Shown here piece after piece: positions 5,938 through 60,144 of a stretch of 64,000 nucleotides of DNA (its first letter is position 1; every line of letters starts with the position of its first letter). The notes beneath the pieces were generated by a model. It had not been told where the DNA came from. It did not search any database and saw nothing but the letters and a program-made list of their open reading frames with translations. Origin of the DNA: a virus; the IMG/VR virus record IMGVR_UViG_3300045988_123958; one strand, given 5' to 3'. The position numbers were made by a program, and so were the translations under genes.

Positions 5938-7524
5938 ATGAAACATACAAGTATTAAATTAAATACACCTTGTGAGTTTATAAATATAACTCCTGTAAAT
6001 CCTTTAATTTCTAAATGCCAAATTAAGGTTTGTTATGTAGATGATAAACCTAATCGTAACAAAAGCGTAATTACTAAAGATGTAGCGACTGAGATGGCTA
6101 ATAGCCTTCCGGGCAGTCCTATTGTTGGCTTTTTTAATGAAAATACCGAAGATTTTGAAGAACATAATAGGATAATTGAATTATCTAATGGCGAATTTAG
6201 AATGAGAGATAATACTCGCCCTTATGGTTTTGTTGATCTTGGAGCTAGAGTTTGGTTTTAGAAATTTTTGGATGATGGTGTTGCCGAACGTGAGTATTTA
6301 ATGACTGAAGGTTATTTGTGGACTGGTTAGTATCCTGAATGTAAACGTGTAGTTGATAAAGGGAATAATCATTCTATGGAGCTTGATGAAAAAACATTAA
6401 ATGCTACGTGGGCAAAAGATAGTAATGGAAAGCCTTAGTTTTTTATTATAAATAAGGCAATTATTTCTAAACTTTGTATTTTGGGAGAAGAAAATGAACC
6501 TTGTTTCGAAGGCTCCCAAATCAATGTGAATTTTTCATTCGATGATGGTTTTAAGAACACTTTGTTCTCCATGATGAATGAACTTAAAGAATTTATGAAA
6601 GAAGGAGGACCCAAAGTGTTTACACAATATGCTGTTGAAATTGGCGATAATTTGTGGAATTCTCTCTGGTCTTATGTTGAGACTAAGTATCCTGGCGAGC
6701 CTAGTAGTTATTGTTCTATTTATCGCATTGAAGGTGTTTATGAAGATGCTGGACAAAAGTTTGCTATTCTTCAAAATAGACAAGACCAAAAATATTATCG
6801 CATGGACTTTTCTCTTACCGATGTAGAAGGCTTTGTTCCTTCTGACGCTTTAACTGAAGTAACTAAGTCTTATACTCCGGCAGCAGAGCCTCAGTTTGCT
6901 CTTGCTGATGTTGAAGCTTTTGAGACTGATTATGCTTCAAAGAAAAAGACTGAGGAAGAGGACAAAAATAATAAATCTAATGGCCAAAACCCTGATAATA
7001 AATCAGAGGGCAATGATAATAAAAAGAACCCTGATAATGGGGAACCCTCTAATAAGTCTGATAAAGGCGACAATGGCGAGAATGATGATGATAAAAAGAA
7101 AAAGAAAAATTATTCTCTTGAGGACGTTGTTGAATATACTGAACTTAAAGCTCAGTATGATGAATTACAGACTAAATTCGCGGCTCTTGAAACTGAAAAT
7201 AATAGCTTGAAAGAGCAAATTGCTCCACTTGCTGAATTTAAAAATGCCGCTGAAAAGAAAGATAAAGAAGATATGATTGCTAAATTCTATATGCTTTCTG
7301 ATGAAGATAAGGCTGATGTTGTTGAAAATATTGATAAATATTCTCTTGATGATATTGAAGCTAAATTATCTGTTATTTGTGTTCGCAACAAGGTGAGTTT
7401 CGACCTTGACGAAAATAATAAGCCCAATGGTGCTACTACTTTTAATTTGAACGATAATGGTTCAGAAGATGATGATATGCCCGCTTGGGTGAAGGCGGCT
7501 TTTGCTACCGCCAACAAAAATTAA
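5938..7524 (+). CDS. scaffolding protein (possibly with N-terminal prohead-protease-like region)
   Basis: Track ORFs 5938..6261 and 6481..7524 share a frame and are linked by 3 TAG. Contains an acidic low-complexity K/D/N/E-rich stretch followed by a coiled coil (ELKAQYDELQTKFAALETENNSLKEQIAPL). Sits upstream of the head genes. Confidence 0.5.
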
Positions 7525-7541
7525 TAAGGAGGACATACTAA

Positions 7542-8459
7542 ATGTTTAAAGACTTTTTGAATAAGAATCTTCCTATTAAGTCTCAGGCAAAGTATGTTGA
7601 GTTTGGTTACGGTCAGGTCGAGCCTAATCACCTTTCCGCACAAAGAAATGCTCAAATCTATGCTCAACTTCCTGCCAATAAAGACATTGAGATTCTTGAA
7701 AACGGTCAGTTTGTAAAGTATGACTATGCTGCTAATGGTAATGGTATTGGCGAAGTCAACTTCACTGGCGAAGGTGAATGGATGCTCGTTTATAACGAGA
7801 TTAAGCTTTATCGTGATCATTATGATGGCAGTAAACAGTGGGATTGCGAATTTGCTATGATTAAAGATGACTATCAGGCTCGTGTTTATAGCCCTTATGA
7901 TTGGGAGCATACCGAGGTTGAATATGGTGGTCGTTTCTGGAATGGCGTTGATGAAAAGGGTCAAACCTATAAGTTAATCAATCAGACCGTTTCCGCAGAT
8001 CAAGGTTTAAAGACTGTTACTATTGCTGGTCGTGTTTATGATGTTGATGAAACCGGCAAGTTTACTTATGATGGTAATGAATATACTCTTAATAGTAATC
8101 ATCAAGTTGCCAATGTTCCTGTAAAATATTACTATGATAAGCTTCTTACTGATGTTCCTGATATGTATGAAATGAATTGGACCAATGATCCATATCATAA
8201 GTTAGGTATTTATCATGAGAAGTTCATGGAATCTGGCACCTCTATGGTTCCTCGTGTATTTAAGACCATGATTGGTGATCTTTATACTACTAATATGATT
8301 AATGAAGAGACTCTTGCTGTTGGAGATAAGCTTTCTCCTTCTGCTGCTACAAAGGGTATTCTTAGCAAAACTGGCGACGATTCAATGACCTGGCAGGTTG
8401 TTAAGGTTTATACTATGCCTGATGGTCAAAAGGGCGTCAAGGTAATGCGTATTAAGTAA
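7542..8459 (+). CDS. abundant head protein (major capsid or decoration protein candidate)
   Basis: Intact 305-aa ORF with no TAG at all and GC-richer codon usage (ctt/gct/ggt), unlike neighbouring genes. Strong RBS. Confidence 0.6.
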   Translation: MFKDFLNKNLPIKSQAKYVEFGYGQVEPNHLSAQRNAQIYAQLPANKDIEILENGQFVKYDYAANGNGIGEVNFTGEGEWMLVYNEIKLYRDHYDGSKQWDCEFAMIKDDYQARVYSPYDWEHTEVEYGGRFWNGVDEKGQTYKLINQTVSADQGLKTVTIAGRVYDVDETGKFTYDGNEYTLNSNHQVANVPVKYYYDKLLTDVPDMYEMNWTNDPYHKLGIYHEKFMESGTSMVPRVFKTMIGDLYTTNMINEETLAVGDKLSPSAATKGILSKTGDDSMTWQVVKVYTMPDGQKGVKVMRIK

Positions 8460-8476
8460 GAAAGGAGAAAAGGATA

Positions 8477-9583
8477 ATGTTAGATAAAAATAATTTAATT
8501 GCTCTTATGAAGCAAGTTGCTAAGGCTGATCCTTCTGCTCCTGTTGCTTATAGTTATGAGGGAAAAAATCTTAGTTATGAAGCCTTAAATGAAACTCTTC
8601 GTAATGAAATGAATGAGTTGGCTGGTACTTACGCTCTTTATCGTGAAAATAAGAATCTTATTTTCTCTATGATTGAGCAGACTCTTGATGAGGTTCTTCC
8701 TAAGAAAGTTATTCAGCAATATGATCAGTTTGCTGAGGTTAAGACTTTCGCTCAGGGTGATAAGCCTATTTTCCGTCGTCCTCTTAATAATCGTGCTCGT
8801 GCTAAGCAGTTTGTAACTCGCGTTGGTCTTGCTGGTATTTATGAAGTCTTCAAGCTCGGACCTAAAGAGAATGAAGCCTTCGAGGTACGTACTAGCGCTA
8901 TCGGCGGAGCTGCTTAGATTGGCTTCGAAGAGTTCCTTGATGGTCGTGTTGATTTCGGTGAAGTAACCAAAATCATCATGGATGGTATGGATGAACTTAT
9001 TTATAAAGAAGTCGCTGCTGCTCTTAGATCTTCTATCAACCAGCTTCCTCCTGCTAACCGCGTTGCGGCTGCCGGATTTGATGAAGCTGCTATGGATCGT
9101 TTGATCACTATTGCTTCTGCTTATGGTACTCCTACTATTTATTGTACTTATGAGTTTGCTGTTAAGATGATTCCTCATGAGGCTTGGAGATATACTGAAG
9201 CTATGAAGAATGAGCTTTGGAATAATGGTCGTCTTGCTACCTACAAGGGCACTAAGGTTATTATTCTTGAGCAGGGCTTTGAAGATGAAACCAATACTCG
9301 TAAGGTTATTGATCCTGGTTATGCTTGGGTTATTCCTACGGGCGCTGATGGTAAGCCTGTAAAGATTGCTTTCGAAGGCGGAACTATTGTTGACGAGTTC
9401 AATAATTATGATCGTTCTCGTGAGATTCAGGTTTACAAGAAGGTTGGCGTAGTTTGTATGCTTGCTAATAATATCTGTGCTTATGTTGATACTTCACTTC
9501 TTGGTCAGATGTATACTTGGAATTATGATGGAGTCACCGGTAAGGTTATCACTTATGATGGCCGTCTTGATGGCACTGTTTAA
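8477..9583 (+). CDS. major capsid protein candidate
   Basis: Track ORFs 8477..8917 and 8978..9583 share a frame and are joined by a single TAG. 368 codons, high-expression codon usage, followed by a strong terminator. Confidence 0.55.
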
Positions 9584-9603
9584 TTTAATATAAATTATTC
9601 CAT

Positions 9604-9646
9604 GGGGGAGAAGGGATTAAACTCCCTCTCCCCATATTTTTGTTTT
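9604..9646 (+). terminator. rho-independent terminator
   Basis: GGGGAGAAGGGA...TCCCTCTCCCC hairpin followed by a T-run. Confidence 0.7.
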
Positions 9647-9670
9647 ATGAGTAAAAGGAGAAATTGAATA

Positions 9671-10264
9671 ATGATTAATAATGAAGATATTTATAATGTA
9701 AAAAATAGAAGCACTAGTGTAGTTGTTTATACTATTCCTGATACTAATTTGCGCCGTGAGTTTGCGCCCGGCGAGACTAAACGCATTCCATTTGGTGAGC
9801 TAGAGAAGTTAACTTATCAAGCAGGTGGCCGCGAATTAATTGCTAATTTTTTACAAATTTTAGAGCCAGAAGTAACTCATACTCTTAATGTTCATACTGA
9901 ACCTGAATATAATATGTCAGAGCAACAAGTTGCTGATTTAATTCTTAATGGCTCATTAGATGCTTTTTTAGATGCTCTTGATTTTGCTCCTATTGGGATT
10001 ATTGACTTAATCAAGAATTTATCTGTTAGCCTTCCTATTACTGATATTAATAAGCGTAGAGCTTTGAAGGAAAAAACTGGGTTTGATGTTGATAAAGCTA
10101 TTGCTAATGATATCGCTAGTAAAGAAGAAGATACTATTGTAGAGAAAGAACCCGCAGCTAAGCGTCGTGGAGTAAGAGAAGAACCTACTACTCAAGGTCG
10201 TCGCACAAGCGGTTCTGGATATAAAGTAATTAATAAAACCGAGGAAACTTCCTCCAAGAAATAA
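9671..10264 (+). CDS. hypothetical virion protein (no TAG codons)
   Basis: Intact 197-aa track ORF preceded by the GAGTAAAAGGAG ribosome-binding context. Confidence 0.6.
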   Translation: MINNEDIYNVKNRSTSVVVYTIPDTNLRREFAPGETKRIPFGELEKLTYQAGGRELIANFLQILEPEVTHTLNVHTEPEYNMSEQQVADLILNGSLDAFLDALDFAPIGIIDLIKNLSVSLPITDINKRRALKEKTGFDVDKAIANDIASKEEDTIVEKEPAAKRRGVREEPTTQGRRTSGSGYKVINKTEETSSKK

Positions 10265-10283
10265 TTTATAGGAGGGCGATTAA

Positions 10284-10856
10284 GTGGGAACATTATTCTC
10301 AACTGTTTATAATCGCTTTCTTAACAAGGTTACTGATGATATGTATCTGGAATTAACTCCCGAAGATACTTTAAGAGATTTATAGAATCTTATAATAGAT
10401 GCTATTCCTGGATTTGAATTTCCGCGAAAAAATCTTTTAGATTATAACTTAGATGTTGCTACTATTAATGAATCTGATGCTACGTCTGATGATTTCATTG
10501 TAGCAACAGTATGGGGAGAACTTCCAGAGCCGGGTGAAGAACCTCAAGTTTTAGTTGATAGATCCAGTTTTAATTGTGATCTAACTGAAGAAGAAATTAA
10601 TATTTTAGCTATTTTAATGATGTGCGGTTGGACGCAAAGACAAGTCACTTCAATTGAGAATACTCGAATGAAATATAGCGGCTCTGATTTTAAATTTACT
10701 TCTTAGGCAAATCACCTATCAAAGCTATTGAATTTATTGGGTGAATGTCAAAGACAATCTCACCATATGTAGCGTTTGTATAAACGCAGACGTCTAAATA
10801 ACAAAGGTGAGTATGAATCTAATTGGGATGTGTTTAAAAGTCGATATGATTACTAA
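10284..10856 (+). CDS. hypothetical head-tail joining protein
   Basis: GTG start after GGAGGG. About 190 codons with 4 in-frame TAG. Coordinates approximate. Confidence 0.4.
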
Positions 10857-10935
10857 ATATAATTTTGATATTCCAATAGAGAGTATAAAAGTAAATTGTT
10901 TGCGCTTAACCAATCAATTATGGAAATTAATTCCA

Positions 10936-11150
10936 ATGCGCGAAAATAATGAAGATTGGCATAAATAGCTAGAAACTGTTATAAATGAAATTGTGGGGTT
11001 TAGTGTGATTTTTAACGCTGAACCCCTTTATTTATAGTTATTAAATAAACTTGAGGGATTATAGAATCAAGATACTGATTTTAATTTTTATCGTAAGACT
11101 GTGTTTGAAACGATCAGTCTTTTATAGGAGATAAATTATGGCGTCAGGGT
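10936..11150 (+). CDS. small hypothetical protein
   Basis: About 71-codon frame with 4 TAG. Weak evidence. Confidence 0.2.
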
Positions 11151-12202
11151 TTGATTATAGTAGTAAGCAACCTTTTAGATTATAGCAAGGTCGCTTAGGA
11201 ATTTATGATAAACCACCCTTTGAAGGTAGCCCTGTTGAAGGCGTTAATTATACAGCGGTTCGGCTCGGTCAAATGGGCGGAAACCGCCAACAAGAGCGTA
11301 TGATTTTATCTAAGCGCAGAAGTTTAGATAGGGCAGTATGGAATTCATACCAAGCCGCAGAAATTATTAAATAGGATGCGGAATATAAAAAACCTATTAG
11401 GTGTTTGATTAATCCTAATAAATTAAAATAGGATTATGATGACAAGATTTTATCTGTTGGAAATGAGTATTAGTTTAAACCGGGAGATATCTTTGAATGG
11501 TGCGGAACTAATACCTATTGGATTTGTTATCTTTAGGATTTGACTGAATTGGCTTATTTTAGAGGAGATATTAGAAAATGCTCTTATAAAATAAATTGGG
11601 TAGATAATGGAGAGAAAAAATCTACTTATGCAGCAATCCGCGGTCCGGTAGAAACGAAAATTGATTATATTTAGAAACATGAAATTAGTGTAGATAATCC
11701 TAATTATTCATTAAATATTTTATTGCCTAAAAATAAAGATACTTTAAATTATTTTAGACGTTATACTAAATTTTATTTAGATAGTTAGGATGAGGGAGAT
11801 AATTTAATTTGTTGGCGTGTTGAAGCTGTAGATTCTATAAGTATGCCTGGTATTTTAGAAGTTAATGCGACTGAATATTATATTAATGAGTAGGAAGATA
11901 ATTTAGATGATAAGACTGTTGGTTCTTTAATTGCGGAACCAATTGATCCAAATCCTACGACAACTGATATTATAGGGGAAACATTTATTTTTCCAAAGAA
12001 AACTTATACTTATTATTTTGATGGTGAAGCTGTTTTAGAATGGGAAATAAAGAATAATAAAAAGTTGCCAATTTCTTTAAGAGTTATTAAAGAAGCTAAA
12101 AAACCAACAGTTGAAATAAGTTGGACTTCTGGATATAGCGGATAGTTTGACTTATGTTATGGAGATTATAAAAAAACGATTGTAGTTCAATCATTGTTTT
12201 AA
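11138..12202 (+). CDS. hypothetical neck/tail structural protein
   Basis: ATG after AGGAG. About 354 codons with about 12 in-frame TAG and no TAA or TGA. Coordinates approximate. Confidence 0.5.
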
Positions 12203-12217
12203 GGAGTAAAAGGTGTT

Positions 12218-12799
12218 ATGAAAATTAATGGTGTAAATTTACCTAAATCAAGTTTTCTTTCTGTTGAAAAAGATTTAGAAATTATTGTAAAGCATCTCTG
12301 TAAAAATGAGAGATTAAAGCGGTTATTGTATTATACAACAAAAGATGCTATTGATAAGCCAGATTTAAATGATGAACAAATGATTCAATTATTTAATAAA
12401 AATATTAAGATAATTCCTAAACTTTATGTTGATGGAAGTGTATTAAATTATGTAATTATTAACTTCGATAATTTTACACAAAGTGGAAATCCTGAGTTTA
12501 GAGATAATATTATTGAATTCGATATTATTTGTCATTTCGATCAATGGCATTTAAAAGATTATCAATTGCGCCCTTATCGTATTGCTGCTGAAATTGATAG
12601 TATGATAGATAAAACACATTTGACTGGTATTGGTAAGTTAGAGTTTCTTGGTGCTAATCAAATTATTTTAACTGATGAATATGCTGGTTTGTGTCTTATG
12701 TATCAAGCAGTTCACGGCGAAGAGGATAAAAAATTTATGCCGAATCCTAATGACGAGGAAAGATTTATAGAAGATTTTAAAAAAAGAATTGAAGAGTAA
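12218..12799 (+). CDS. hypothetical structural protein (no TAG codons)
   Basis: Intact 193-aa track ORF preceded by the GAGTAAAAGG ribosome-binding context. Confidence 0.6.
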   Translation: MKINGVNLPKSSFLSVEKDLEIIVKHLCKNERLKRLLYYTTKDAIDKPDLNDEQMIQLFNKNIKIIPKLYVDGSVLNYVIINFDNFTQSGNPEFRDNIIEFDIICHFDQWHLKDYQLRPYRIAAEIDSMIDKTHLTGIGKLEFLGANQIILTDEYAGLCLMYQAVHGEEDKKFMPNPNDEERFIEDFKKRIEE

Positions 12800-13524
12800 T
12801 GGATATTAGACTTGGGTTAATGACAGGTATTGATTTGCCAATACCTGAATTAGAAGTCACTATTCATTAGCCATCTATAAAAGAAATTTCTTTTATAGGT
12901 GAAAAAGATCTTTTCTTGGGGATTTAGTGTTTATGTATTGATAAAAACATAATAGAGAATTCGGGCGAAAGTCTTTTAAGAGAAACAAATAATTTTTAGA
13001 TATTTATGACAATGATGAAAGAAAAAGAGATGGCCGATAAAAAACAAGCATCTATGTAGGTTCTTACATTATTGTTTCCAAAGCAAAATGTTTTATTTAC
13101 CCCGAGGTCAATTGTTTTACAAGGTGATCCACAAATAATGATTGACGAAAGCAATTTTAATATATTATAGGAATATATTAAAGAAATATTTTGTTTTAAA
13201 TCTAATGCTTCGCAAGAAATGGGATTTAATCCTGGAAATGCGGCCGCGAAAAAGATAGCCGATAAATTAATGCGAGGTAGACAACGTGTCGCTGAATTGA
13301 ACGGCACGGCTAATGCTAGTATATTTAGTTAGTATCTTTCAATGCTTACTATAGGTCTTGATTCAATGTCTTTACAGGATTTAATGGATTTAACAATGTT
13401 CCAACTCTATGACCTTGTTGAAAGATATCAACTTTATATTAATTGGGATATTGATATCCGGTCTAGATTAGCAGGTGCGAAGCCTGATAATAAGCCGGAT
13501 AACTGGATGAAAAATATCCATTAA
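12799..13524 (+). CDS. hypothetical protein (tail assembly?)
   Basis: ATG overlapping the preceding stop, in the same frame as track ORF 13342..13524. About 241 codons with 6 TAG. Confidence 0.45.
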
Positions 13525-13548
13525 ATTTTTTAAGGAGGAAAAAAACCT

Positions 13549-14532
13549 ATGAAATTTGGTGTACGCGAAATTTGCGATGTCGTTTTAAAGGCAAAGGCTA
13601 ATCAAAAGATTGGTAATAAGCAATTTTATAAGAATGAGCCAGTTATTTATTTCGACACTTTAAAGACTTCCAGTATGGAAGGCGCTGCTACCACTGTATA
13701 CGCACAAGGTGGACGTGGTAATACTAATTTAGTCGCATGGGAAGGCGAGCGTACTGTTACCTTCACAATGGAAGATGCTCTTATTTCTCCTGAAGGTTTC
13801 ATGATTCTTTCCGGTGCTGGTCTTGTTGAGGCTTCTGCTAACAATAAGATTAAGCAACATATTACTCAAACTGTTGATAAGACTAAAGACATTGTCCCTG
13901 CTAATACTGGAAAAGACATTAAGACTGATGGACTAATCGTTCCTGTTTCTTATGCCCCTTATCTTGATAATGAGCATAAAGATGACGATTATGTTTATGT
14001 TTTCTTTATGAAAGATGGCGAAATTATTTCTGAGCCTTATTTGGCACATGAAGGAGTTACTACGGGAGATACTGGTTTTAGTGTTACCGTAAAAGGATTT
14101 GATCGTGCTACTGGAGTGGCTTATACCACTAACGATTTAGAAAATGATTATGCTAAATGCGACTCTGTAATGGTTGATTATTACACTGAGCGTGAATCTG
14201 GTGCTAAGCAGATTGAAATTACTGCTGATAAGTTCGGTGGTAACTACTATCTTGAAGCTTCTACTTTATTCCGTAATCAAGATGGTGTAGATATGCCTGC
14301 TGAATTTATTATTCCTAACTGCAAGATTCAATCCAACTTTAACTTTACAATGGCTTCTTCTGGTGATCCTTCTACTTTCACCTTTACTATGGATGCATTC
14401 CCTGATTATACTCGTTTCGATCATAGTAAGAAAGTTTTGGCTGCTATTCAGATTATTGAAGAAGACGAAACTGTTGACAACGATATTCGTAGAAAGACCG
14501 CTGCTAATAGCACCATTGTTGTTGGAGGCTAA
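13549..14532 (+). CDS. major tail (tube) protein candidate
   Basis: Intact 327-aa ORF with no TAG and high-expression codon usage. It lies upstream of the chaperone genes and the tape measure gene. No sheath-sized gene is present, which suggests a long non-contractile tail. Confidence 0.5.
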   Translation: MKFGVREICDVVLKAKANQKIGNKQFYKNEPVIYFDTLKTSSMEGAATTVYAQGGRGNTNLVAWEGERTVTFTMEDALISPEGFMILSGAGLVEASANNKIKQHITQTVDKTKDIVPANTGKDIKTDGLIVPVSYAPYLDNEHKDDDYVYVFFMKDGEIISEPYLAHEGVTTGDTGFSVTVKGFDRATGVAYTTNDLENDYAKCDSVMVDYYTERESGAKQIEITADKFGGNYYLEASTLFRNQDGVDMPAEFIIPNCKIQSNFNFTMASSGDPSTFTFTMDAFPDYTRFDHSKKVLAAIQIIEEDETVDNDIRRKTAANSTIVVGG

Positions 14533-14720: not shown

Positions 14721-14725
14721 TTAAT

Positions 14726-14758
14726 GGGAGAGAATAGAAATATTCTCTCCCATTTTTT
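14726..14758 (+). terminator. rho-independent terminator
   Basis: GGGAGAGAATA gaaa TATTCTCTCCC hairpin followed by TTTTTT. Confidence 0.75.
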
Positions 14759-14781
14759 CGTTATGTGAAAAAGGAGAAAAT

Positions 14782-16530: not shown

Positions 16531-16565
16531 TTGCAAAGTAAAAATTGGAGAGAAAGGAGATTTCT

Positions 16566-19500
16566 ATGGCTAAACAATTAAATAGTTATTAGGTTAATTT
16601 ACAATTTACCGCTGATTCTAAATAGGCTCAACAGCAATTATAGGATTTACAAAATTAGCTAAATAATCTAATGGCAAATTCTATAAAAACTGATGCTAGT
16701 TTAGGAATTTCTAAAGATATATAGAGTGCGATTCAACTAACCGCACAATTAAAAACTTAGTTATAGCAAGCAACTAATGTTGACACGGGTAAATTAGACC
16801 TTAGTAAATTTAATTAGGCTTTAAAATAGGGTGGAGTTTCCCTTAAAGAATACCAAAAGAATCTAAGCTTATTAGGACCAGAAGGCGAAAAAGCATTTGC
16901 TAATTTAGCGACTTCTATTTCGCAAGCAGAATTACCTTTAAAAAGAACTAATTCTTTACTGAAAGAGTTTGGGATTACTTTAGCAAATACTGCTCGTTGG
17001 CAAATTTCTTCTAGTATCTTACACGGATTTATGGGATCTTTATAGACTGCTTATGGGTACGCTCAAGATTTAAATGAATCTTTAAATAATATTCGTATTG
17101 TTACTGGATAGACTACCGATTAGATGGCTAAATTTGCTAAATAGGCGAATATCGCGGCCAAAGCTTTAAGCACAACTACTACTGAATATACTGACGCTGC
17201 TTTAATTTATTATCAATAGGGCTTAGATGATTAGGCAGTAAAAGAGCGTACTGATGTTACTATTAAAATGGCTAATGTGGCTCGTGAAAGTGCTGAAATT
17301 GTTTCCGATCAAATGACCGCAGTTTGGAATAACTTTTATAATGGAAGTTAGTCTATCGAGCATTATGCTGATGCGATGGTACGTTTAGGTGCTGATACTG
17401 CATCTAGCACTGATGAAATTGCTGGCGGTCTTGAGAAGTTCGCGGCTGTAGCTGACACAATCGGGTTAAGCTTTGACAACGCGGCGGCCGTTTTAGCAAC
17501 TATTACTGCTACTACACGTTAGAGCGAAGATGTTGTAGGTACTGCTTTAAAAACTATTTTTGCTCGTATTCAAGGTTTAAAACTTGGCGAAACTCTTGAA
17601 GATGGTACTACATTAAATCAATATTCATAGGCTCTTGAAAAAGTTGGAATTAATATCAAAGATTCCAATGGTGAATTGAAAGATATGGATAATATCATTG
17701 AAGAAATGGGTAATAAATGGAATACTATTGATAAAGATTAGCAAGTAGCTTTAGCTCAATAGGTAGCTGGTGTTCGTTAGTATACTCAATTAATTGCTTT
17801 AATGGATAATTTTGATTTTTATAAAGAAAATCTTGCTAGAGCATAGAATGCTGATGGCTCTCTTCAAGAACAAGCAGATATTTATGCTGAATCTTGGGAG
17901 GCCGCCGGAGATAGAGTAAAGGCTTCAGCTTAGAAAATATATGCTGCTCTACTGGATGATAATTTCTTTATTGATTTAACCAATGGATTTAGTTCTGTTT
18001 TAGATTTAATAGGTAATGTATCATAGAGTTTAGGTGGAATGCCTGGTATGTTGCTTTTAATTGGTTCTACAATGTCAAAAGTTTTTTCAAAAGAATTAAC
18101 TACATCTTTTGATAATTGGTTTTATAATTTAGGATTAAAGTTTGGAACTATCAAAAATGATATTGAAGAATTAAAAAAATAGGCTAATGAAAGTCTTATT
18201 TTATCTGGAAATAAAAATACTACTTCTGGAAAAGCAATGAATATGGCTTATTCAGAATAGTCTACCGCTCAATTAATGCTTATTGCTAATGCCGATAAAT
18301 TAAGTGAAAAAGAAAAGTAGATTGCTTCAAGTTTATTAGATTAGCATAATTTATTAGTATAGAGTGTTATTAAACGTGGTGAAGAAGTAGAATTGGCTGA
18401 GAAAGAAGTGAGTACATTAAATAAACGTTCTTCAGTTATGGCTAAAGTAATGGCTAGTAGAACCTACTAGAATGGTACTCCACAAGGTACTGAAGATGCT
18501 GAAAACGTTGCTAATCGTTTTGAAAAAGCTAAAAAGCAAATTTAGGCTTATTCAGAATTAGTTTATAAATTATCTTCTGTTCCTATCGTTAGTGAAGAGT
18601 AGTTTAAAACTGAGGGGCTTGAAAAAGTTAAAAAGATATTAGATGAAGTTTATATAAAAGAAGAAAATTTAAATAAATAGGATTTAGGATTTGGTGCTGA
18701 TAATAAAAATATTAAAGCATTAATTAAAAGTTTAAATAATGGTACTCTAACTGCGAAAAATTTTGAAATTGCTTTGGCTGGATTAGATGATACTAATTCT
18801 ATTAAAAGATTAACTAAGACATTAGAGCTTTGTGGATATGAAACAAAAGATGCTATGAAATTAGCCATGTAGTTAGTTGATACTTATAATAAAGTTGGAG
18901 ATTCCTCGGCTAATTTGACTGAAGATGAATAGAGACTCGCTAATGCCACAAAATCTTTAGGGGATTGGTTTGCAACTGTTAAAGGAGAAACTCAAACTCT
19001 TGGTTCAGCATTCTCCGCTTCTATTAACGGAATAACTAATTTTGGTATGGCATTAACTTCTATTAAAGGATTAATAGATACTTTAAATGACACAGATATG
19101 TCTTTTGGAGATAAATTATTAGCCACTTTTACTTAGTTAGGATTAATTTTACCAAATTTAGTTTATAGTTTTTAGACGGTAAGTAGTGTTCTTGGTCCAT
19201 CTGGGTTTATAGGAAGTATTTTTGCTTCTAAAGCTGCAATGGAAAAATTAAATTAGACTTATGGCGAAAATGTAATTGCAACGGCTACTGATATTATAAT
19301 GAAAAATAAGGACACTTTAGCGACTGATGAAAATACTAGAGTAAAAGTTCTTAATGAATTAGCTCAAAAAGGTATCACTGATACAGAAGAAGCTGCTATA
19401 GTTATTTAGACAATTCTTACAGCTAAAAAAAGAGAAGAAACTCTTGCTATAGAAAAGAATACTCTTGCTGAAATAAAAAATAGAGCAGTTAAATTACTCA

Positions 19501-22500
19501 CTAATAAAACTTTTCTTGCTACTGTTGCTATTAGTGCTGTAGTTATCGGTACTTTATATGCGGTTTCTAAAGCGGCAAATGCTGAAGCAGAAAGTCTTCA
19601 AAAAGCTACTGAAGCTGCTGAAAATTTAAAAGAAAAATCTCAATAGACGAAAACTGAATTAAATAATATTATTTCGGCTTTCGATCAATATTAGACTGCG
19701 ATAGATACATTAAATGAATGTACTAAAGGAACTGATGAGTGGAAAGAAGCTTTATCAGATGTAAATGAATAGATTTGGAGTATTCTTGAAACTTATCCTG
19801 ACTTAGCTAAAATAGATAATCTTTTTAATGAAGATGGCACATTTAATCAAGAAGCTATTGACTCTTTTATAGCAGATAAACGTGATAAATCTAATAACGC
19901 TTAGGCAGCTGCTTTGGCCAGTTAGGCCGCAGTTAGTTAGATGGAATATTAGTCCAATAGAAAAGAAGCGGTTAATTAGGTTTATTCTGTGGTATCTAAA
20001 TATAGCACTAATGGCGAATCCAATGCGGAAAATAAAAAAATAGCAGGAGAATTAGTTGATTCTATCGTAAATGCTATAAATTCTCCTGATGGTATTCAAA
20101 ATATTGATGGAATTTTTGAAGACTATGCTAAGCAATTTGATAATATAAGTCTTGGCACTTCTTTAGATGATTTTACTAACGCTTTAAAGGGATGCTCTGA
20201 TAATTTAAAAGAATTAGGTAGAAATGCTAAAGAAACAGGAAATTAGGTTGATAATACTGGTAAATTATTATCTAAACAAGTTCTTGGCGATAATATAACA
20301 GATGAATAGGCAAATGATTTTACTAATACTTTTGATTCTGCTTATGCCAAACAAAAGAGAATTACTTTAAATGGTTTAAAAAATGATTTTACTAGATGGG
20401 CTGGAAGAAATAATAGTAATGTAAAAGATTATTGGGAACAATATAAAGAAGCTACAGGTTATGATTATAATTTAACAAGTAACGCAGTTCAAGGTAGTGG
20501 AGATAATCGCGTTTTTGAGTATTATAATGATGATGGTAACAAAGTAACCATTTCTGTTGAAGAAATGGCTGAAGCAATTGCTAGTGCTTAGGCTAAAAAT
20601 GATGCCGAAAAATCTACTAGAGAAGATTTAAATAATACTTTAGGTGAAGATATTTCTTCTAATATTAGTTCTGATGTAGATATTTCTCTTTTAAATGATT
20701 TGGTTCAAACTATGAATTTAGAAGATGAAACTACAAGACAAGCTCTTGAAGCGATGTTCGATGTAAATCAAACTGTAAGTGAGCAAGAAGATATTATAAA
20801 AGATTTAGTTAATACTTTAAGTGAAGAAGAAAAAGCTCAATAGGAAGTTGCTTCTTTAACTGAAAATGCTGTTTAGAAATATGGGTTAGATGCTGATGAC
20901 ATTGAAGATTAGGCTAAACGAATTCAGAAAGCCTATGATTTAACTGAAGTTGAAGCAACTAAACTTGCTATTACTAATTAGCGAATGAATAATGGCGTTA
21001 AAAACTTAAGCGACAATTGGGAAAATTGGAATTCTGTTTTAAAGAAAAGTCAAATCGATGATAAAGAAAAATTAACTAAAGAATATACTGATACAATCCA
21101 AGATTTAACTAAAACTATTGCTGATTTAACCGGTGCTTCAGAAGATTTAGAATTACCTGATGAATTTTTTGATTCGGCCGATAATTTAGAATTAATTAAT
21201 TAGGCTGCTCAAGGTAGTACTGATGCTATTAATCAATTGGGTATTGCTGTAGCAAAAACCACAGTTGATTTAATGGAAATTAATGATGCGGAAAAAAATC
21301 TTACCATGACTTATGGGGATAACGAAGATGAAGGTATTTTACCTGAATATATTCGTAATTTCCAAGATAATAAAGAAATTATTTTAAATGGTTTAGATGA
21401 AATTTCAGCTAAACTTGCTGAAGGTCAAGATTTAACTGGTAAAGGATTAGAAGAGATTCTTTCTGGTGGAACTGAAGCTGCAAATAATTGGGTTAATGCA
21501 TTAAATGAAATGGCTATGGCTACTAACATGTCTGTTGAAGACATGAATAGCACTCTTAGTCAAATGGGATTAACTGCTGATGTTGATGTAACTGAAAAAA
21601 CTATTACAAGTAAAAAACCAGTTACTAAAACCACTCTTACTTATGGAGAGCTAGACAAAGTTACAGGATTTCCAAAAGAAATAACTCAGCAATCTAGCAT
21701 AGTTGATTATACTGATGTACCTGAAAAAATATAGGTAGCTCAAATTGCTACTAATGGAGCAAAAAATACTCCTCCTAAAGTTAATTTTGCTGGTTCTGGT
21801 CCCGTATCTCATTCTTCTACTTCGTCAGGGAAAAAATCAAGTGGTGGTTCTTCTTCTTCTAAGCCTTCTAAAATTGATAAATCTAAAAAATCTGATGTTG
21901 TTGATAGATATAAAGAAATAACTGATAGTATCAACGATACTACTCGTGCTTTAGATAAAGCTAATAAATCAGCGGATAGGCTTTGGGGTAAAGCTCATCT
22001 TGATGCGATGGCTAAAAGCAATAAGTTAACTTTAAAAGAAGTTGATTTATTAAAACAAAAGCAAAAAGAAGCTTAGGCCTATTTAAAGACAGATAAAGCT
22101 ACTTTATAGCAAGCTGCGAAAAAAGCTGGAATTACTTTCACATTTGATGCAGATGGTGATATTTCTAATTATACTGATTAGATGACTAAACTTTATAATT
22201 AGCTTGTAGCCGCTTAGGATAAAGCAAATTCTTTTTCTACAAAAGATGCTCAAGATGCTTATAAAGAAGCAACTTTAGATCCTATTCAAAAGAAAATCGA
22301 TGAGTTAAAAGACGCCATTAGTCAATATGAAGATACAAGAGATTTAGTCGAAGAATTAACTGATGATATTCAAGATAAAATAAACGAGTGGCAAGACAGA
22401 AATTATCAAATGCTTACTTATGAAGTTGAAGTAAAGGTTCAATTAGACGAAAATGATACTAAGAAATTAGAATATTATTTTGATAAATTAAGTGATAATA

Positions 22501-24785
22501 TTTATAAAGCTGCTGAAGCTCTTGGATATTTACAAGGTCAATTTGATCCAGTAATTAGCCAATTAGGAACTTATGAAAATTTCTATGGTTAGTTAAACAA
22601 TGCTTATTCTAATGGAGAAATTTCTCAAGAAAATTATATTGAAGGCTTACAAGATGTATATGATAATACATTAGATAATTTAAATGCTTTGTAGGATTTA
22701 GATAAAGAAATGCTTGAATATTATGGTAATACTATAGATTTAGCAAATGATGAATTATCTAAATATACAGATCATATGGAGCATTTAACTAGTGTATTGG
22801 ATCATTATCGTTCTATTATTACTTTGTTAGGTAAAGACAAAGATTATGATAAAGTTTTATCAGTTTTGAATGGAACTGCTTAGACTAAGAAAAATAATTT
22901 TGATACTTCTAAACAATGGTATGAAAGCTTGAAGCGTGAACGTGATGCAGCAGCCGCGGCCTTAGCCAATTCGACCGATGAGGCGGAACGTGAAGGACTT
23001 CAAAAGAATTATGATGCTATATTAGCTGCGTTCGATGAGGCGGAAGAAGATATGCTTTCTAAAGCTGAAGAATATGGTGAAGCATTAAAAGAAATTCTTA
23101 CTACAAAGATGGAACAAGCTGCGGATGAAATGAATAAGCAATTGAGCACTACTAAAGTAAGTATTAACGGTAATAACTTTAATATTTCTGGCTGGGATGC
23201 TTTAAATGACGCTTTGGATAGAATGTCTTCTTATCAAGATGAATATTTAACAAAAACTAATTAGATTTATGAAATGAATAAACTACTTAATAATGTTAAT
23301 TAGGCTATTAATAAGACAAATAATCAAGCAGCTAAAAATAGATATCAGCAATTTACTAAAGAAATTGAGTAGTTAAGAGATAAAGATAAATTAAGTCAAT
23401 TAGAATTAGAAATTGCTTAGGCTAAATATAAAGTGCTTGAAGCACAAATCGCGTTAGAGGAAGCTCAAAACGCAAAGTCTACAGTTAGACTGCAACGTGA
23501 TAATGAGGGTAATTTTGGTTATGTGTATACCGCAGACCAAGAGAAAGTAAATGACGCGCAATAGGCTTTGGCAGACGCGGAAAATGACTTATATAACATT
23601 CGTCTTGATGCGACAAATAAATATGGTCAACAAAAACTTCAATATGAAAAAGAGCTAGCTGAAAAGCTTGCGGAACTCGATTAGAAAGCCGCGGAAGATG
23701 CTGTTTATCGTGAGACCACATATCAGCAAGAACGCGCATTAGTAATTCAACAATATACTGATTTAATTACTACTGCTGGAAACCTTTATGCGAAAGCACA
23801 AGAAGAGGATAACCGAGTAGTTCAAGATGCTTGGGTAAATTCTTTTGATATTATCAAAGATAATAGTAATAGTTGGAAAGATACTATTACTGAAAACACT
23901 AATATTATCAATGATACATTTAAAGAATGGCAAGGCAGTATGGATGAAATTAGTAAAATTGTTGGTGATGATTTAAAAGATACTCAATAGAAAGTTAAAG
24001 ACGTTACTGATGAAAGTAATAAACTTTATCAAGAAGTATCTAATAGAGTTATTCCTGCTCTTGAAAGTGAGTTGAGTTCCGTCCGTAGCGCCACTGAAGC
24101 TTGGGCACAACATCGTCAGCAATTACTTGATACTATTAGAGCTTATGAAGAGCTTTTAGATGCTATCCAAGCGACATTACGTGCTTAGAGTGGATTTGGT
24201 AGTGGAAGTAGCTCTGGTAATGATAGTGATTGGTCTAAAGATATGGGTAATGTAACATATGGGTCTGATGATTATTATAAATATATGTAGAATCGCGAAG
24301 ATAAAATTAATGGTGGATATGATGTTGGAGCTGCTACTAATGCTCGTGTTGATGCTTTCTATCGTAAAGGATTAACACTTCCAATTACTCGTAATGGATA
24401 GACTTATCGTTATTTTACTGACATTCCTGATAGTGTTTGGAAACAATTGGTTGGATTTAGAAGTGGTGGCTATACCGGCACTTGGAATGATGATGGCAAG
24501 TTAGCATTCTTACATTAGAAAGAATTAGTTCTTAATGCTGATGACACGGAAAATATGTTAGCTTCTATTCAATTAGTTAGATAGATCGCGAAACAATTAG
24601 ATTTCAATAGTCAACAAATTTCTACTCTTTCATCTTCTGGATTTACTGTTAGTTCTCAAGATGGAACATTAGAATAGAATGTTAGAATTGAAGCTAGCTT
24701 CCCGAACGCAACTGATAGATATGAAATTCAAGAAGCATTTAATACATTAGTTAATGTAGCTTCTCAATATGCCAATAGAAAATAA
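16566..24785 (+). CDS. tail tape measure protein (2,739 codons)
   Basis: ATG at 16566 is in frame 0. Track ORFs 19989, 20985, 21237, 22410 and 22929 are all in frame 0 and are separated only by TAG. Hand reading found dozens of in-frame TAG and no TAA or TGA before 24783. Contains a TMP-like segment (TEYTDAALIYYQQGLDD). Confidence 0.75.
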
Positions 24786-46553: not shown

Positions 46554-46563
46554 AGGATAAAAT

Positions 46564-52447: not shown

Positions 52448-53320
52448 ATGTTTAATTACAATTATCCAATGAGCACGCCGAATTATTCATTATCTGATAT
52501 TGCTGCGGCTTCTGGAAATGGCTATCGTAATAATGATGGCGGAATGTGGGGAGACGGAGCATGGTGGATTATTATTCTGTTCTTATTCTGCTTCAATGGT
52601 TGGGGCGGTAATGGCTGGGGTAATAATGGTTCTGGTTTCCAAGGCACTACAACCCGAGAAGAATTGAACTATGGTTTCGACATTAGTGATCTTAAATCTG
52701 GAGTCAATAGTTTAAATTCTAGCCTTTGTAATGGTTTTAGCGGAGTAAACACTAATCTTTTAAGTGGTTTTGCTAATCTTGCTGAAACTAATAATGCCAA
52801 TACTCGTGCTTTACAGAGCGATATCTGCAATATGGGTATGAATAATATGCAAAATACCTTTAGTATTACTCAGGCCATTAATGCCGATACTGTAGCAGGT
52901 ATGCAGAATACTAATAATTTAACTCAGCAATTAAGTAATATGGCAGCTACTAATGCTCAATGCTGCTGCGAGAATAAACAATTAATTCAATCTAGTTTTG
53001 CTGATCTTAATTACAATCTCGCTAGTATTGCTTGCCAGAATCGTCAGACTACCGTTGATGGTGTCCGCGATATTATTGACAACAATAATGCTAATATGCG
53101 TTCTATTCTTGACTTCCTTGTTCAAGATAAAATTGAGACTCTTACCAGTGAAAATAGCACTCTTAAAAATTAGATTTCTCAAAATCTTCAAAATGCTTAT
53201 CTTATTGATCAGTTGTCTCCAAAAGCAACTCCTGCTTATATTGTTGCTAATCCTTATACCGGTGTTAGTTATACTAGCTATGGATGCGGATATGGTTCAG
53301 GATGCGGTTGCAATTCCTGA
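52448..53320 (+). CDS. Gly/Asn/Trp-rich single-pass membrane protein with N/Q-rich coiled region and Cys-rich C-terminal tail
   Basis: Track ORF 52448..53173 extended through 1 TAG to a TGA near 53318. Transmembrane segment AWWIIILFLFCF flanked by GWGGNGWGNNG repeats. C-terminus is GCGYGSGCGCNS. Confidence 0.5.
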
Positions 53321-54670: not shown

Positions 54671-55099
54671 TTAGTCTTTAAGCGGTAATTTTAAAGTCCT
54701 TTCATAGTACTCTTTAGCCTATCCATTTCCACCTAAACCTGCATATACTTTAAAGAATTCGACTAACTATTCATACTGCCCTGAAGTCATATATCCTTGT
54801 TTTAAGAAACTTTGACATAATTGAATTAATCTAAATCTATAAGAAGCAAGAATTATTTCAATATATTTCTCACTACTTTTCTTTTCTTCCAATACGAAAG
54901 ATCTTAAATTATTTAAATCTTCTTTAATTGGAGCTATATGTTCTTCAATTAATTCTTCTAATTGTTCATCTTTCTTTTCTTCTGCCAATTTTTGATACAT
55001 TTTCATTTGGGTATAAATATATCTACAAAAGGCTAAGAGGCCAGCAGAAATAAGACCAAAAAATATTTCTATAAAATGCTAGGCAATAAAAGCAGACAT
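54671..55099 (-). CDS. small membrane protein
   Basis: Track ORF 54767..55006 extended in both directions through TAG. ATG at 55097-99 after a GGAGGT RBS. N-terminal transmembrane helix. About 142 codons. Confidence 0.45.
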
Positions 55100-55156
55100 A
55101 AAAAATACCTCCTTCCACTTAACTTCTAATATATTTTAAAAGAAGGGAAGGAGGAT

Positions 55157-55690: not shown

Positions 55691-55723
55691 GTAATTACCT
55701 CCTTTCTTTAAGGTTTGAGGTAA

Positions 55724-57284: not shown

Positions 57285-57365
57285 TGTTATATAATCTCCT
57301 ATCTATTTCATAGAAAAATTATATCACAAATTTTCTTTTTTGTCAAGTTTTAAATTAATAATGTT

Positions 57366-60085: not shown

Positions 60086-60144
60086 ACTAAATATAGTAGT
60101 TCTTTTAGAATATTCTACTATATTTAGATTTTGTTAGTAAATAA

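What the first reader, a model, noticed from the sequence alone, without database searches (positions are those of the whole stretch)
7542..14532. Most abundant virion-protein genes avoid TAG entirely and use distinct codons
The genes at 7542..8459, 9671..10264, 12218..12799 and 13549..14532 contain no TAG, and the capsid candidate at 8477..9583 has one. Nearby genes carry TAG about once per 10-30 codons; the tape measure protein has dozens. The TAG-free genes also favour ctt/gct/ggt/cgt codons. This suggests amber read-through is inefficient or timed, so the highest-expression structural genes are purged of it. It is also a useful marker for picking out the major capsid and tail genes.
Basis: seen in the sequence. 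Interest (0 to 1): 0.55.

Follow-up and report, generated by a model that had tools for sequence, protein, structure and literature searches.

The report
Abundant virion genes purge recoded TAG
In this gut phage, which reads the stop codon TAG as glutamine, the genes for the capsid protein, its upstream neighbour and the tail tube have almost no TAG and use a distinct codon set, a pattern kept in 26 related lineages, so TAG behaves like a strongly disfavoured rare codon in the most heavily translated genes.

Summary
The window is a TAG->Gln (code 15) siphovirus of the phAss-1/SPbeta-like group, about 197 kb.

- **TAG counts.** Genes 7542-8459, 9671-10264, 12218-12799 and 13549-14532 have no TAG. 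The capsid gene 8477-9583 has one. About 22 were expected at the 1.6% rate of the other late genes (P ~5e-9).
- **Codon usage.** Three genes carry a strong separate bias towards CTT, CGT, GCT, CCT, AAG, GAG, TTC and CAG: the gene upstream of the capsid gene (g7), the major capsid gene (g8) and the tail tube gene (g15). Gene g9 is intermediate. Gene g13 is not biased.
- **Relatives.** In 26 independent recoded lineages, g7, g8 and g15 hold 0.5-0.8 TAG per 1000 codons, against 12-34 in neighbouring genes (26 of 26 lineages). TAG density tracks codon bias across genes (rho -0.86). Gene g13 is TAG-rich in the other lineages, so its TAG-free state here is lineage-specific or chance.
- **Standard-code relatives** show the same codon bias in the same genes.
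- **Suppressor.** The lineage encodes a CUA-anticodon tRNA, outside the window.

Best reading: TAG is a costly, non-preferred codon removed by translational selection. Expression level and the mechanism of the cost are inferred. The idea is largely anticipated in the literature, so this counts as a new member of a known kind.

The parts
7542..8459 (+). g7, 305 aa, directly upstream of the capsid gene. It has 0 TAG and the second strongest codon bias in the window. Function is unknown. I infer a high-copy head protein, such as a decoration or auxiliary capsid protein.
   Evidence: PC1 5.0. Orthologues hold 0.8 TAG per 1000 codons over 25 lineages, 20 of them with none, although protein identity is only about 58%. 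No Pfam or PDB match. AlphaFold models were poor, pLDDT 38 and 47.
8477..9583 (+). g8, major capsid protein, 368 aa. It has one TAG at 8915-8917 (codon 147), which is a private CAG->TAG change.
   Evidence: Homologues are annotated as major capsid protein. An orthologue matches Pfam YonB. Top of codon PC1. Orthologues hold 0.5 TAG per 1000 codons, 22 of 26 lineages with none. Codon 147 is CAG in all 17 near-identical relatives.
9602..9646 (+). Strong GC-rich hairpin followed by a T-run, directly after the capsid gene. Terminator-like.
   Evidence: Read from the sequence. Similar hairpins with a T-run follow the capsid orthologue in at least 10 of 32 lineages under a strict detector. They are rare after other genes.
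9671..10264 (+). g9, 197 aa, 0 TAG, moderate codon bias. An intermediate member of the pattern. Function unknown.
   Evidence: PC1 1.3. Orthologues hold 3.5 TAG per 1000 codons, 17 of 26 lineages with none, preference index 0.47.
12218..12799 (+). g13, 193 aa, a virion structural protein family. It has 0 TAG here but is not part of the conserved pattern.
   Evidence: PHROG 6123. PC1 -0.55. P(0 TAG) is about 0.04 on its own. Orthologues hold 16.2 TAG per 1000 codons in 22 lineages.
13549..14532 (+). g15, tail tube (major tail) protein, 327 aa, 0 TAG, strong codon bias.
   Evidence: Homologues are annotated as tail tube or major tail protein. PHROG 2729. PC1 3.65. Orthologues hold 0.7 TAG per 1000 codons, 17 of 19 lineages with none.
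14723..14760 (+). Terminator-like hairpin with a T-run, after the tail tube gene and a small TAG-free ORF (14538-14720).
   Evidence: A comparable structure lies downstream of the tail tube orthologue in 16 of 23 lineages.
5938..7524 (+). g6, 528 aa, with an acidic low-complexity region and a coiled-coil segment. Scaffold-like by position. TAG density and codon bias are intermediate.
   Evidence: 3 TAG, PC1 2.1. Orthologues hold 6.2 TAG per 1000 codons, preference index 0.45. Coiled-coil Pfam hits.
16545..24785 (+). g18, tape measure protein, 2746 aa, 77 TAG (28 per 1000 codons). A contrast case: a low-copy late gene.
   Evidence: Pfam PhageMin_Tail, E = 2e-28.
52448..53320 (+). g34, 290 aa, outside the reported range. 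It shows the same signature (fourth on codon PC1, 1 TAG, 7 CAG). Function unknown.
   Evidence: PHROG 16490, unknown function. No Pfam hit.
54671..63758 (-). Replication and nucleotide-metabolism block on the opposite strand (NrdD, dUTPase, DNA polymerase III alpha pieces). It is TAG-poor without the strong codon bias, so it forms a second, different class of TAG-poor genes.
   Evidence: 13 TAG in about 3110 codons, summed by hand. PC1 mostly between -2.4 and 0.9, with one gene at 1.8. Pfam hits.

Best explanation
The window is about a third of a roughly 197-kb siphovirus that decodes TAG as glutamine using its own tRNA with a CUA anticodon. In this genome TAG is a legitimate sense codon, making up about 37% of glutamine codons in ordinary late genes. 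Selection treats it as a strongly non-preferred codon, in the same class as AGG, CGA, CGG, ATA and GGG.

Genes whose products are needed in the highest copy number carry a translational-selection type of codon bias. These are the major capsid protein, the protein encoded just upstream of it, and the tail tube protein. A neighbouring gene (g9) and the scaffold-like gene do so to a lesser degree. These genes encode glutamine with CAG or CAA instead of TAG.

The likely reason is that a UAG codon must be read by a single phage-supplied suppressor tRNA in competition with the host release factor RF1. Each TAG would then cost time and some truncated product. That cost scales with how often the gene is translated, so purifying selection removes TAG only where translation is heaviest.

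- **Shown:** the recoding, the depletion, its conservation, its correlation with codon bias, the ancestral nature of the bias, and the suppressor tRNA in the same lineage.
- **Inferred:** the expression ranking, the competition with RF1, and the size of the cost.
For: **Recoding**

- ORF coverage rises from 59% to 97% when TAG is read through.
- TAG sites in the window align with Gln in 69% of cases in standard-code relatives.
- A 90-nt tRNA with anticodon CTA sits in a tRNA array on contigs whose capsid loci are 99-100% identical to the window. It scores 57.8 bits against Rfam tRNA and is homologous to a phAss-1 suppressor tRNA.

**Depletion in the window**

- 1 TAG against 22 expected, P = 4.9e-9.
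- For the capsid and tail tube genes alone, P = 1.8e-4.

**Codon bias**

- The first axis of codon usage was computed without Gln codons and explains 29% of the variance. It ranks g8, g7 and g15 first.

**Conservation**

- In 26 recoded lineages below about 93% ANI, excluding the window's own cluster, g7, g8 and g15 hold 0.8, 0.5 and 0.7 TAG per 1000 codons. Most other genes hold 12-34, with g9, g17 and g6 intermediate at 3.5-6.2. The density is lower in these three genes in 26 of 26 lineages.
- The relation is graded over 16 genes: rho = -0.86, p = 2e-5.
- g7 and g15 are no better conserved as proteins (58-64% identity) than their TAG-rich neighbours.

**Specificity to TAG**

- TAG falls from 32% to 1.7% of Gln codons, while the other G-ending codon CAG rises from 14% to 64%. 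The depletion (log2 -4.2) is comparable to GGG, AGG, CGA, CGG and ATA.

**The bias is ancestral**

- The same three genes are biased in the 5 standard-code relatives, 0.48-0.52 against 0.28-0.38 for most other genes (g9 is again intermediate at 0.44), and they prefer CAG there too.

**Other support**

- The only TAG in the window's capsid gene is CAG in all 17 close relatives.
- Terminator-like hairpins follow the capsid and tail tube genes.
Against: - No expression, proteomic or read-through measurement exists for this phage. 'Most abundant' rests on homology-based function for two genes, and on codon bias and position alone for g7.
- The host is unknown, so I could not test whether the preferred codons match the host's optimal codons or tRNA pool.
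- Within the window, the correlation between codon bias and TAG density is not significant once the five genes are removed (rho -0.33, p = 0.13).
- One gene (g17) is TAG-poor without marked codon bias.
- Early genes are TAG-poor without strong bias, so expression level is not the only force shaping TAG density.
- The +4 context of TAG differs only weakly from that of CAA (p = 0.035). This gives little direct sign of RF1 competition.
- In crAss-like phages a tail tube family was reported to prefer TAG, so the rule is not universal.
Confidence: 0.7

Rival explanations
1. Accuracy rather than speed. TAG is removed from lattice-forming proteins because RF1 occasionally terminates at it. Truncated capsid or tube subunits would then poison the assembly of large polymers. 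On this view the selection is on product quality in multimeric assemblies, not on elongation rate. This overlaps with the main explanation and is not exclusive of it.
For: The three robustly TAG-free genes include the two proteins that polymerise in the highest copy number, capsid and tail tube. The depletion of TAG is as extreme as for the rarest codons.
Against: The graded relation with a general codon-bias index, and the same bias in standard-code relatives, are explained more simply by expression level. The few TAGs that do occur in these genes are scattered from 6% to 84% of gene length. They show no avoidance of late, near-full-length truncation sites, although only 15 sites are available. 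g7 has no known assembly role.
Confidence: 0.3
2. Timing. The TAG-free late genes begin to be translated before the suppressor tRNA has accumulated, so they must be readable in the standard code, as the early genes are.
For: Timing-type TAG avoidance does exist in this genome. The opposite-strand replication block has about 4 TAG per 1000 codons without strong codon bias. This matches the published early/late model. Terminators bracket the capsid and tail tube genes, so they could form separate transcription units.
Against: The genes sit inside a co-directional late module, between TAG-rich partners needed at the same moment: portal at 16 per 1000, head and tail completion genes at 16-35 per 1000. 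No convincing promoter excess was found (59 sites against 53 expected). Timing does not predict the accompanying bias at all other amino acids, nor the same bias in standard-code relatives.
Confidence: 0.12
3. Mosaicism. The TAG-free genes were recently acquired from a phage with higher GC content and the standard code, and have not yet accumulated TAG.
For: g7, g8 and g15 have higher GC (0.38-0.40) than the genome (about 0.30). Standard-code relatives exist and appear interleaved with recoded ones.
Against: The genes are syntenic in every lineage examined. They are TAG-poor in 26 of 26 recoded lineages that have diverged to 50-60% protein identity in g7 and g15. That is ample time for TAG to arise, as it has in all their neighbours. 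The GC excess follows from the preferred C- and G-ending codons.
Confidence: 0.03
4. Chance. A few short genes lack TAG by sampling alone.
For: This holds for individual short genes. 12218-12799 (7 Gln codons) and 9671-10264 (5 Gln codons) have P about 0.04-0.1 each. The orthologues of 12218-12799 are TAG-rich elsewhere.
Against: For the set, P is about 5e-9 and heterogeneity chi-square is 92 on 29 df. Replication in 26 lineages excludes chance for g7, g8 and g15.
Confidence: 0.02

Closest known systems
Gene-family-level enrichment and depletion of recoded stop codons in code-15 and code-4 phages (Borges et al., preprint 10.1101/2021.08.26.457843)
   Same: The phage recodes TAG while infecting a presumably standard-code host. 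The replication block is TAG-poor and late genes are TAG-rich. [quoted passage not shown]
   Different: That work stresses enrichment in lysis genes and a tail tube family, and depletion in integrases, and reads this as regulation. Here the holin is not enriched (1 TAG in 135 codons). The tail tube gene is depleted, not enriched. The depletion lies inside the late module and tracks codon bias.
Report that the major capsid gene of an amber-reassigned Crassvirales phage has no recoded TAG (preprint 10.64898/2026.08.21.746148)
   Same: The observation for the capsid gene is the same. The proposed reason is the same: capsid genes are under strong pressure to match host translational preferences.
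   Different: That report covers a single genome and a single gene in an unrelated phage order, with no statistics or comparative test. Here the effect extends to the tail tube gene and an unknown neighbour of the capsid gene. It is graded across genes and is replicated in 26 lineages, with standard-code relatives as controls.
Translational-selection codon bias in phage structural genes (for example Lucks et al. 2008, Carbone 2008; cited from my own knowledge, not read here)
   Same: The main axis of codon usage separates capsid and tail genes from the rest. Classic rare codons (AGG, CGA, CGG, ATA, GGG) are avoided in them.
   Different: The avoided set here includes a reassigned stop codon that depends on a phage-encoded tRNA. 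The match to host codon preference could not be tested.
phAss-1 / proposed Phassvirus and related SPbeta-like gut siphoviruses (PMC10607447)
   Same: The capsid protein is 50% identical to that of phAss-1. Both have a giant tape measure protein, TAG->Gln recoding, an NrdD gene, and homologous suppressor tRNAs with a long variable arm.
   Different: This is a different and larger lineage: about 197 kb against 136 kb, with no nucleotide-level match. That paper lists which ORFs contain TAG but does not analyse TAG density against expression or codon bias.
Under-use of reassigned codons in highly expressed genes of organisms with variant codes, such as ciliate UAA/UAG-Gln (from my own knowledge, not checked here)
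   Same: The logic is the same. A reassigned codon is served by a minor tRNA and is avoided where translation is heaviest.
   Different: Those are cellular genomes in which the release factor has changed. Here the host release factor is presumably intact, so the reassigned codon still competes with termination.

Membership tests
Code-15 (TAG->Gln) recoded phage | Coding density and ORF length rise sharply when TAG, and only TAG, is read through | tested here: met
   Coverage rises from 59% to 97% for TAG, and only to 62.5% for TGA. The longest ORF rises from 534 to 2748 aa.
Code-15 (TAG->Gln) recoded phage | In-frame TAG aligns with glutamine in homologues that use the standard code | tested here: met
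   177 of 256 aligned sites (69%) are Q, followed by E at 7% and K at 5%.
Code-15 (TAG->Gln) recoded phage | A phage-encoded suppressor tRNA with anticodon CUA | tested here: met
   There is none in the window, nor within -10 to +84 kb of it. One is present in a tRNA array on same-lineage contigs (L378:3369-3458 and others). Which amino acid it carries was not tested.
Code-15 (TAG->Gln) recoded phage | Early genes compatible with the standard code, late genes recoded | tested here: met
   The opposite-strand replication block holds about 4 TAG per 1000 codons. Ordinary late genes hold 16 per 1000.
Translational-selection codon bias of highly expressed phage genes | The main trend in synonymous codon usage separates genes for high-copy proteins | tested here: met
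   PC1 (29% of variance, Gln codons excluded) ranks capsid, g7 and tail tube first. They are in the top 3 in 24-27 lineages.
Translational-selection codon bias of highly expressed phage genes | Preferred codons match the host's optimal codons or most abundant tRNAs | not testable with these tools
   The host is unknown. The only hit in genome collections is a 164-kb contig labelled 'uncultured Mollicutes bacterium', most likely the phage itself.
Translational-selection codon bias of highly expressed phage genes | Direct evidence that the biased genes are the most highly expressed | not testable with these tools
   No transcriptome or proteome is available. Support is indirect: function and flanking terminators.
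Translational-selection codon bias of highly expressed phage genes | The bias is kept in orthologues across divergent lineages, independent of recoding | tested here: met
   The preference index is 0.59-0.65 in recoded relatives and 0.48-0.52 in standard-code relatives. Most other genes score 0.28-0.39; g9 and, in recoded lineages, g6 are intermediate at 0.44-0.48.
Regulatory enrichment of recoded stops in lysis and tail tube genes (crAss-like model of Borges et al.) | Lysis cassette genes and the tail tube gene use TAG in preference to CAA/CAG | tested here: not met
   The holin (50300-50707) has 1 TAG against 10 CAA. The tail tube gene has 0 TAG. No endolysin was identified in the window.
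phAss-1-related SPbeta-like siphoviruses | Homologous capsid and tail tube proteins, a giant tape measure protein, and module synteny | tested here: met
   The capsid protein is 50% identical to phAss-1 and 40% to Enterococcus phage EF1. The tail tube protein is 40-50% identical. The tape measure protein matches PF10145. Genus-level membership is not met, since there is no megablast match.

The most novel reading that the evidence does not exclude
In TAG-recoded phages, TAG density may be a conserved, quantitative readout of how heavily each late gene is translated. It would then reveal, from sequence alone, the fitness cost of decoding a reassigned stop codon against an intact host release factor. 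On that reading it predicts that the uncharacterised g7 (7542-8459), and possibly g34 (52448-53320), are major products made in roughly capsid-like amounts. It also implies that the code switch does not gate the synthesis of the bulk virion proteins. It would gate only the low-copy assembly, packaging and tail-tip proteins.
Probability: 0.35. Interest if true: 0.55.

Novelty: new member of a known kind. Interest (0 to 1): 0.4.

Why it matters
This qualifies the prevailing model that stop-codon recoding gates late gene expression. In this large and widespread family of gut phages, the proteins needed in the greatest amounts can be translated without the suppressor tRNA. Portal, terminase, tape measure and tail genes cannot.

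It also offers a simple, testable genomic measure of the cost of natural codon reassignment. It gives a practical hint for annotation: within a recoded late module, genes that are both TAG-free and codon-biased are candidates for high-copy virion proteins. The hint is limited, because early genes and short genes give false positives, and at least one crAss-like tail tube family behaves in the opposite way.

Tried and rejected
**Function of g7.** There were no matches in Pfam, or in PDB by sequence or profile. The only PHROG hit is a family of unknown function. AlphaFold gave pLDDT 38 from the single sequence and 47 from 38 homologues. I ran no fold search, because the matches would be meaningless at that confidence. 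The profile search for g9 also found nothing.

**TAG derived mainly from CAG.** Not supported. Window TAG sites align with CAA 132 times and CAG 45 times in standard-code relatives, much like CAA sites do.

**TAG concentrated at the 5' ends of genes, as a gate.** Not seen. The deciles are flat.

**Selection on the base after TAG.** Only a weak shift (more A, fewer T; p = 0.035). Inconclusive.

**Promoter scan.** No excess over shuffled sequence.

**Search for the suppressor tRNA.**
- There was none in the window or in 10-kb extensions on either side.
- An exact-protein look-up of a gene at the window's end found nothing.
- Walking with an exact 40-mer gained only 0.7 kb.
- It was finally found with a pattern built from the phAss-1 suppressor tRNAs.

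**Nucleotide search of the phage collection.** No match.

**Rfam.** The window matched no RNA family.

Full report
**What the window is.** Reading through TAG, but not TGA, raises coverage by ORFs of at least 100 aa from 59% to 97%. The longest ORF rises from 534 to 2748 aa. I called 49 genes under code 15.

- Positions 42-50707 on the + strand form a packaging, head, tail and lysis module.
- That module includes a tape measure gene of 2746 aa (PF10145) and a holin.
- Positions 54671-63758 on the - strand hold replication and nucleotide-metabolism genes: NrdD, dUTPase and DNA polymerase III alpha pieces.

The capsid protein is 50% identical to that of phage phAss-1 and about 40% identical to Enterococcus phage EF1. 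More distant homologues in large Bacillus siphoviruses are annotated as major capsid protein. phAss-1 is a published code-15 gut phage with three suppressor tRNAs (PMC10607447). No nucleotide-level match exists in the phage collection. IMG/VR holds many near-identical contigs. Several are about 195-200 kb, and one (197,006 bp) closes on itself, so the genome is about 197 kb.

**The observation.** Under code 15 the four named genes have no TAG and the capsid gene has one, at 8915-8917. The tape measure gene has 77.

- The other 25 late genes carry 240 TAG in 14,968 codons (1.6%). About 22 were therefore expected in the five genes (P = 4.9e-9).
- On glutamine codons alone the contrast is 1/47 against 240/644 (p = 3e-8).
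- TAG counts are heterogeneous across late genes (chi-square 92 on 29 df).
- Four TAG-free genes of at least 190 codons compare with 0.36 expected.
That gives P = 1.8e-4.
- The statement that neighbours carry TAG every 10-30 codons is too high. The range is one per 29-175 codons.

The codon-usage claim is correct. Figures are percent of each amino acid's codons:

| Codon | Five genes | Other late genes |
|---|---|---|
| CTT | 49 | 19 |
| GCT | 80 | 55 |
| GGT | 53 | 40 |
| CGT | 62 | 31 |
| AAG | 60 | 16 |
| GAG | 40 | 16 |
| TTC | 42 | 13 |
| CAG | 38 | 3 |

**Which genes really share the signature.** I ran a principal-component analysis of synonymous codon usage with glutamine codons left out. 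Its first axis explains 29% of the variance.

- It ranks the capsid gene g8 first, then g7 (7542-8459) and the tail tube gene g15.
- Next come g34 (52448-53320) and the scaffold-like g6.
- g9 (9671-10264) is moderately positive.
- g13 (12218-12799) is not distinct.

g15 is the tail tube or major tail protein by homologues so annotated. The function of g7 could not be established.

**Comparative test.** I retrieved 80 loci around capsid homologues and identified orthologues of genes 1-17. I then clustered the loci at about 93% ANI. This gave 26 recoded lineages outside the window's own cluster and 5 standard-code lineages. Pooled over the 26 recoded lineages:

| Genes | TAG per 1000 codons |
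|---|---|
| g8 | 0.5 |
| g15 | 0.7 |
| g7 | 0.8 |
| g9 | 3.5 |
| g17 | 5.9 |
| g6 | 6.2 |
| every other gene, including g13 at 16.2 | 12-34 |

- All 26 lineages have a lower TAG density in g7, g8 and g15 than in their other genes.
- g7 and g15 are no better conserved as proteins (58-64% identity) than their TAG-rich neighbours. Protein constraint therefore does not explain the pattern.
- A codon-preference index built from ten amino-acid families correlates with TAG density over 16 genes (rho -0.86, p = 2e-5).
- The same three genes are the most biased in nearly every lineage, including the five that do not recode TAG. In those five they also prefer CAG.
- In g7, g8 and g15, TAG drops from 32% to 1.7% of glutamine codons, while CAG rises from 14% to 64%. 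The depletion is comparable to that of GGG, AGG, CGA, CGG and ATA.
- The single TAG in the window's capsid gene is CAG in all 17 near-identical relatives, so it is a recent private C-to-T change.

**Decoding.** Window TAG sites align with glutamine in 69% of cases in standard-code relatives. No tRNA lies in the window or within 10 kb upstream and 20 kb downstream in same-lineage contigs.

I built a search pattern from the phAss-1 suppressor tRNAs. It found a tRNA array on three contigs of the window's own lineage. The array includes a 90-nt tRNA with anticodon CTA. That tRNA is homologous to phAss-1 sup1 and to suppressors in other related lineages, all with a long variable arm. It scores 57.8 bits against Rfam tRNA.

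**Mechanism.** The best-supported reading is that TAG is a sense codon with a cost. It depends on one phage tRNA. By established knowledge of bacterial termination, it is also the target of release factor RF1. Selection against it is therefore strongest where translation is heaviest.

Support for high expression is indirect:
- Function. A tape measure protein of 2746 aa implies a tail of roughly 400 nm, and so several hundred tube subunits. This uses the usual rule of about 0.15 nm per residue, from my own knowledge.
- The codon bias itself.
- Terminator-like hairpins directly after the capsid gene (9602-9646), after the tail tube gene (14723-14760), and before the tape measure gene. These recur in many lineages.

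The opposite-strand replication block is also TAG-poor, at about 4 per 1000 codons, but lacks the strong bias. There are therefore two classes of TAG-poor genes. One fits the published early/late model. The other fits expression level.

**Rivals.**
- **Timing.** Early translation of the capsid and tail tube genes is not excluded. It explains neither the bias at other amino acids nor the same bias in standard-code relatives. The genes also lie between TAG-rich partners that are needed at the same time.
- **Truncation poison.** This variant is compatible with the data and is not separable from the main reading here.
- **Recent acquisition from a standard-code phage.** Conserved synteny and 26 of 26 lineages argue against it.
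- **Chance.** It is excluded for g7, g8 and g15. It is the likely explanation for g13.

**Relation to the literature.**
- Borges et al. showed family-level enrichment and depletion of recoded stops. They called stop codons the least efficient codons and emphasised lysis genes. They reported a crAss-like tail tube family that prefers TAG. That is the opposite of what is seen here. The holin here is not enriched either.
- A 2026 preprint on a Crassvirales genome notes that its capsid gene has no recoded TAG, and invokes host codon adaptation.
- Cook et al. found that the capsid protein is identifiable with table 11 in 407 of 715 code-15 genomes, against 475 with table 15. This is consistent with capsid genes often being TAG-poor, but it is not a direct test.
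- The phAss-1 paper does not analyse TAG density.

The finding is therefore a well-replicated, quantitative instance of an idea already in the field. It is not a new kind of phenomenon.

**Verdict.**
- Novelty: a new member of a known kind.
- Interest: 0.4.

Noticed in passing
window 52448-53320 and 53342-53764: g34 is 290 aa, with an N-terminal hydrophobic segment, an Asn/Gly-rich body and a Cys-rich C-terminus. It has the same signature as the capsid gene: fourth on codon PC1, 7 CAG, 1 TAG. The adjacent g35 is also positive on PC1. Both match only PHROGs of unknown function. They may be abundant products outside the head and tail modules.
   Followed up: partly
window 51714-52160: g32 (148 aa, Gln-rich) has the highest TAG density in the window, 8 TAG or 54 per 1000 codons. 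It lies about 1 kb downstream of the holin, beyond an opposite-strand gene. Function unknown (PHROG 21718).
   Followed up: partly
L378:3369-3458 (same-lineage contig IMGVR_UViG_3300045988_118370); also L356:9078-9167 and L352:7965-8054: The CUA-anticodon suppressor tRNA is 90 nt with a long variable arm, like a type II tRNA. It is conserved with phAss-1 sup1 and with suppressors of other related lineages. Its anticodon arm resembles that of the neighbouring tRNA-Tyr(GTA). Several family members have U1:A72, G2:C71, G3:C70 and G73, which I recall as glutamine-type acceptor identity elements. How such a scaffold is charged with Gln is unclear.
   Followed up: partly
L356:7726-7805 (contig IMGVR_UViG_3300045988_110853): ARAGORN calls a tRNA with anticodon TCA, which would read TGA, in a sister strain. 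Yet TGA ends 11 of the 49 genes in the window, and reading through TGA does not lengthen ORFs. Rfam did not report this tRNA at its gathering score.
   Followed up: no
L378:8092-8179, L356:13395-13481, L352:3243-3330: The phage tRNA array includes tRNA-Leu with anticodon AAG, an unusual A34 tRNA for bacteria. It would read CTT, which is the leucine codon preferred in the TAG-free, codon-biased genes.
   Followed up: no
loci L027, L059, L062, L064, L081 compared with the recoded loci: Standard-code relatives have capsid proteins 75-87% identical to the window's, a range that overlaps that of the recoded lineages. In a quick neighbour-joining tree of terminase, portal and capsid proteins, two of them nest inside recoded lineages (no support values). 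The code seems to have been gained or lost more than once in this family.
   Followed up: partly
L326 (CAMELE010000001.1, 163,874 bp): A GTDB species-representative 'genome' titled 'uncultured Mollicutes bacterium' carries a tail tube gene 99% identical to the window's. The contig is probably this phage binned as a bacterium, or it is a hint to the host.
   Followed up: no
window 14538-14720: A small TAG-free ORF of 60 aa, Lys- and Glu-rich, sits between the tail tube gene and its terminator-like hairpin. It was not included in my gene set.
   Followed up: no
window 38809-46554: A second giant late gene of 2581 aa with 28 TAG, of unknown function, lies downstream of the tail genes. I did not annotate it.
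   Followed up: no
window 60713-62320 and 63330-63758 (- strand), continuing beyond the window (L088:7889-11902): DNA polymerase III alpha domains (HHH_6 and finger) are spread over separate ORFs. This suggests a split or interrupted dnaE-like gene.
   Followed up: no
The g7 family is therefore very common in gut metagenomes but has no annotation, no Pfam domain and no confident predicted fold.
   Followed up: partly
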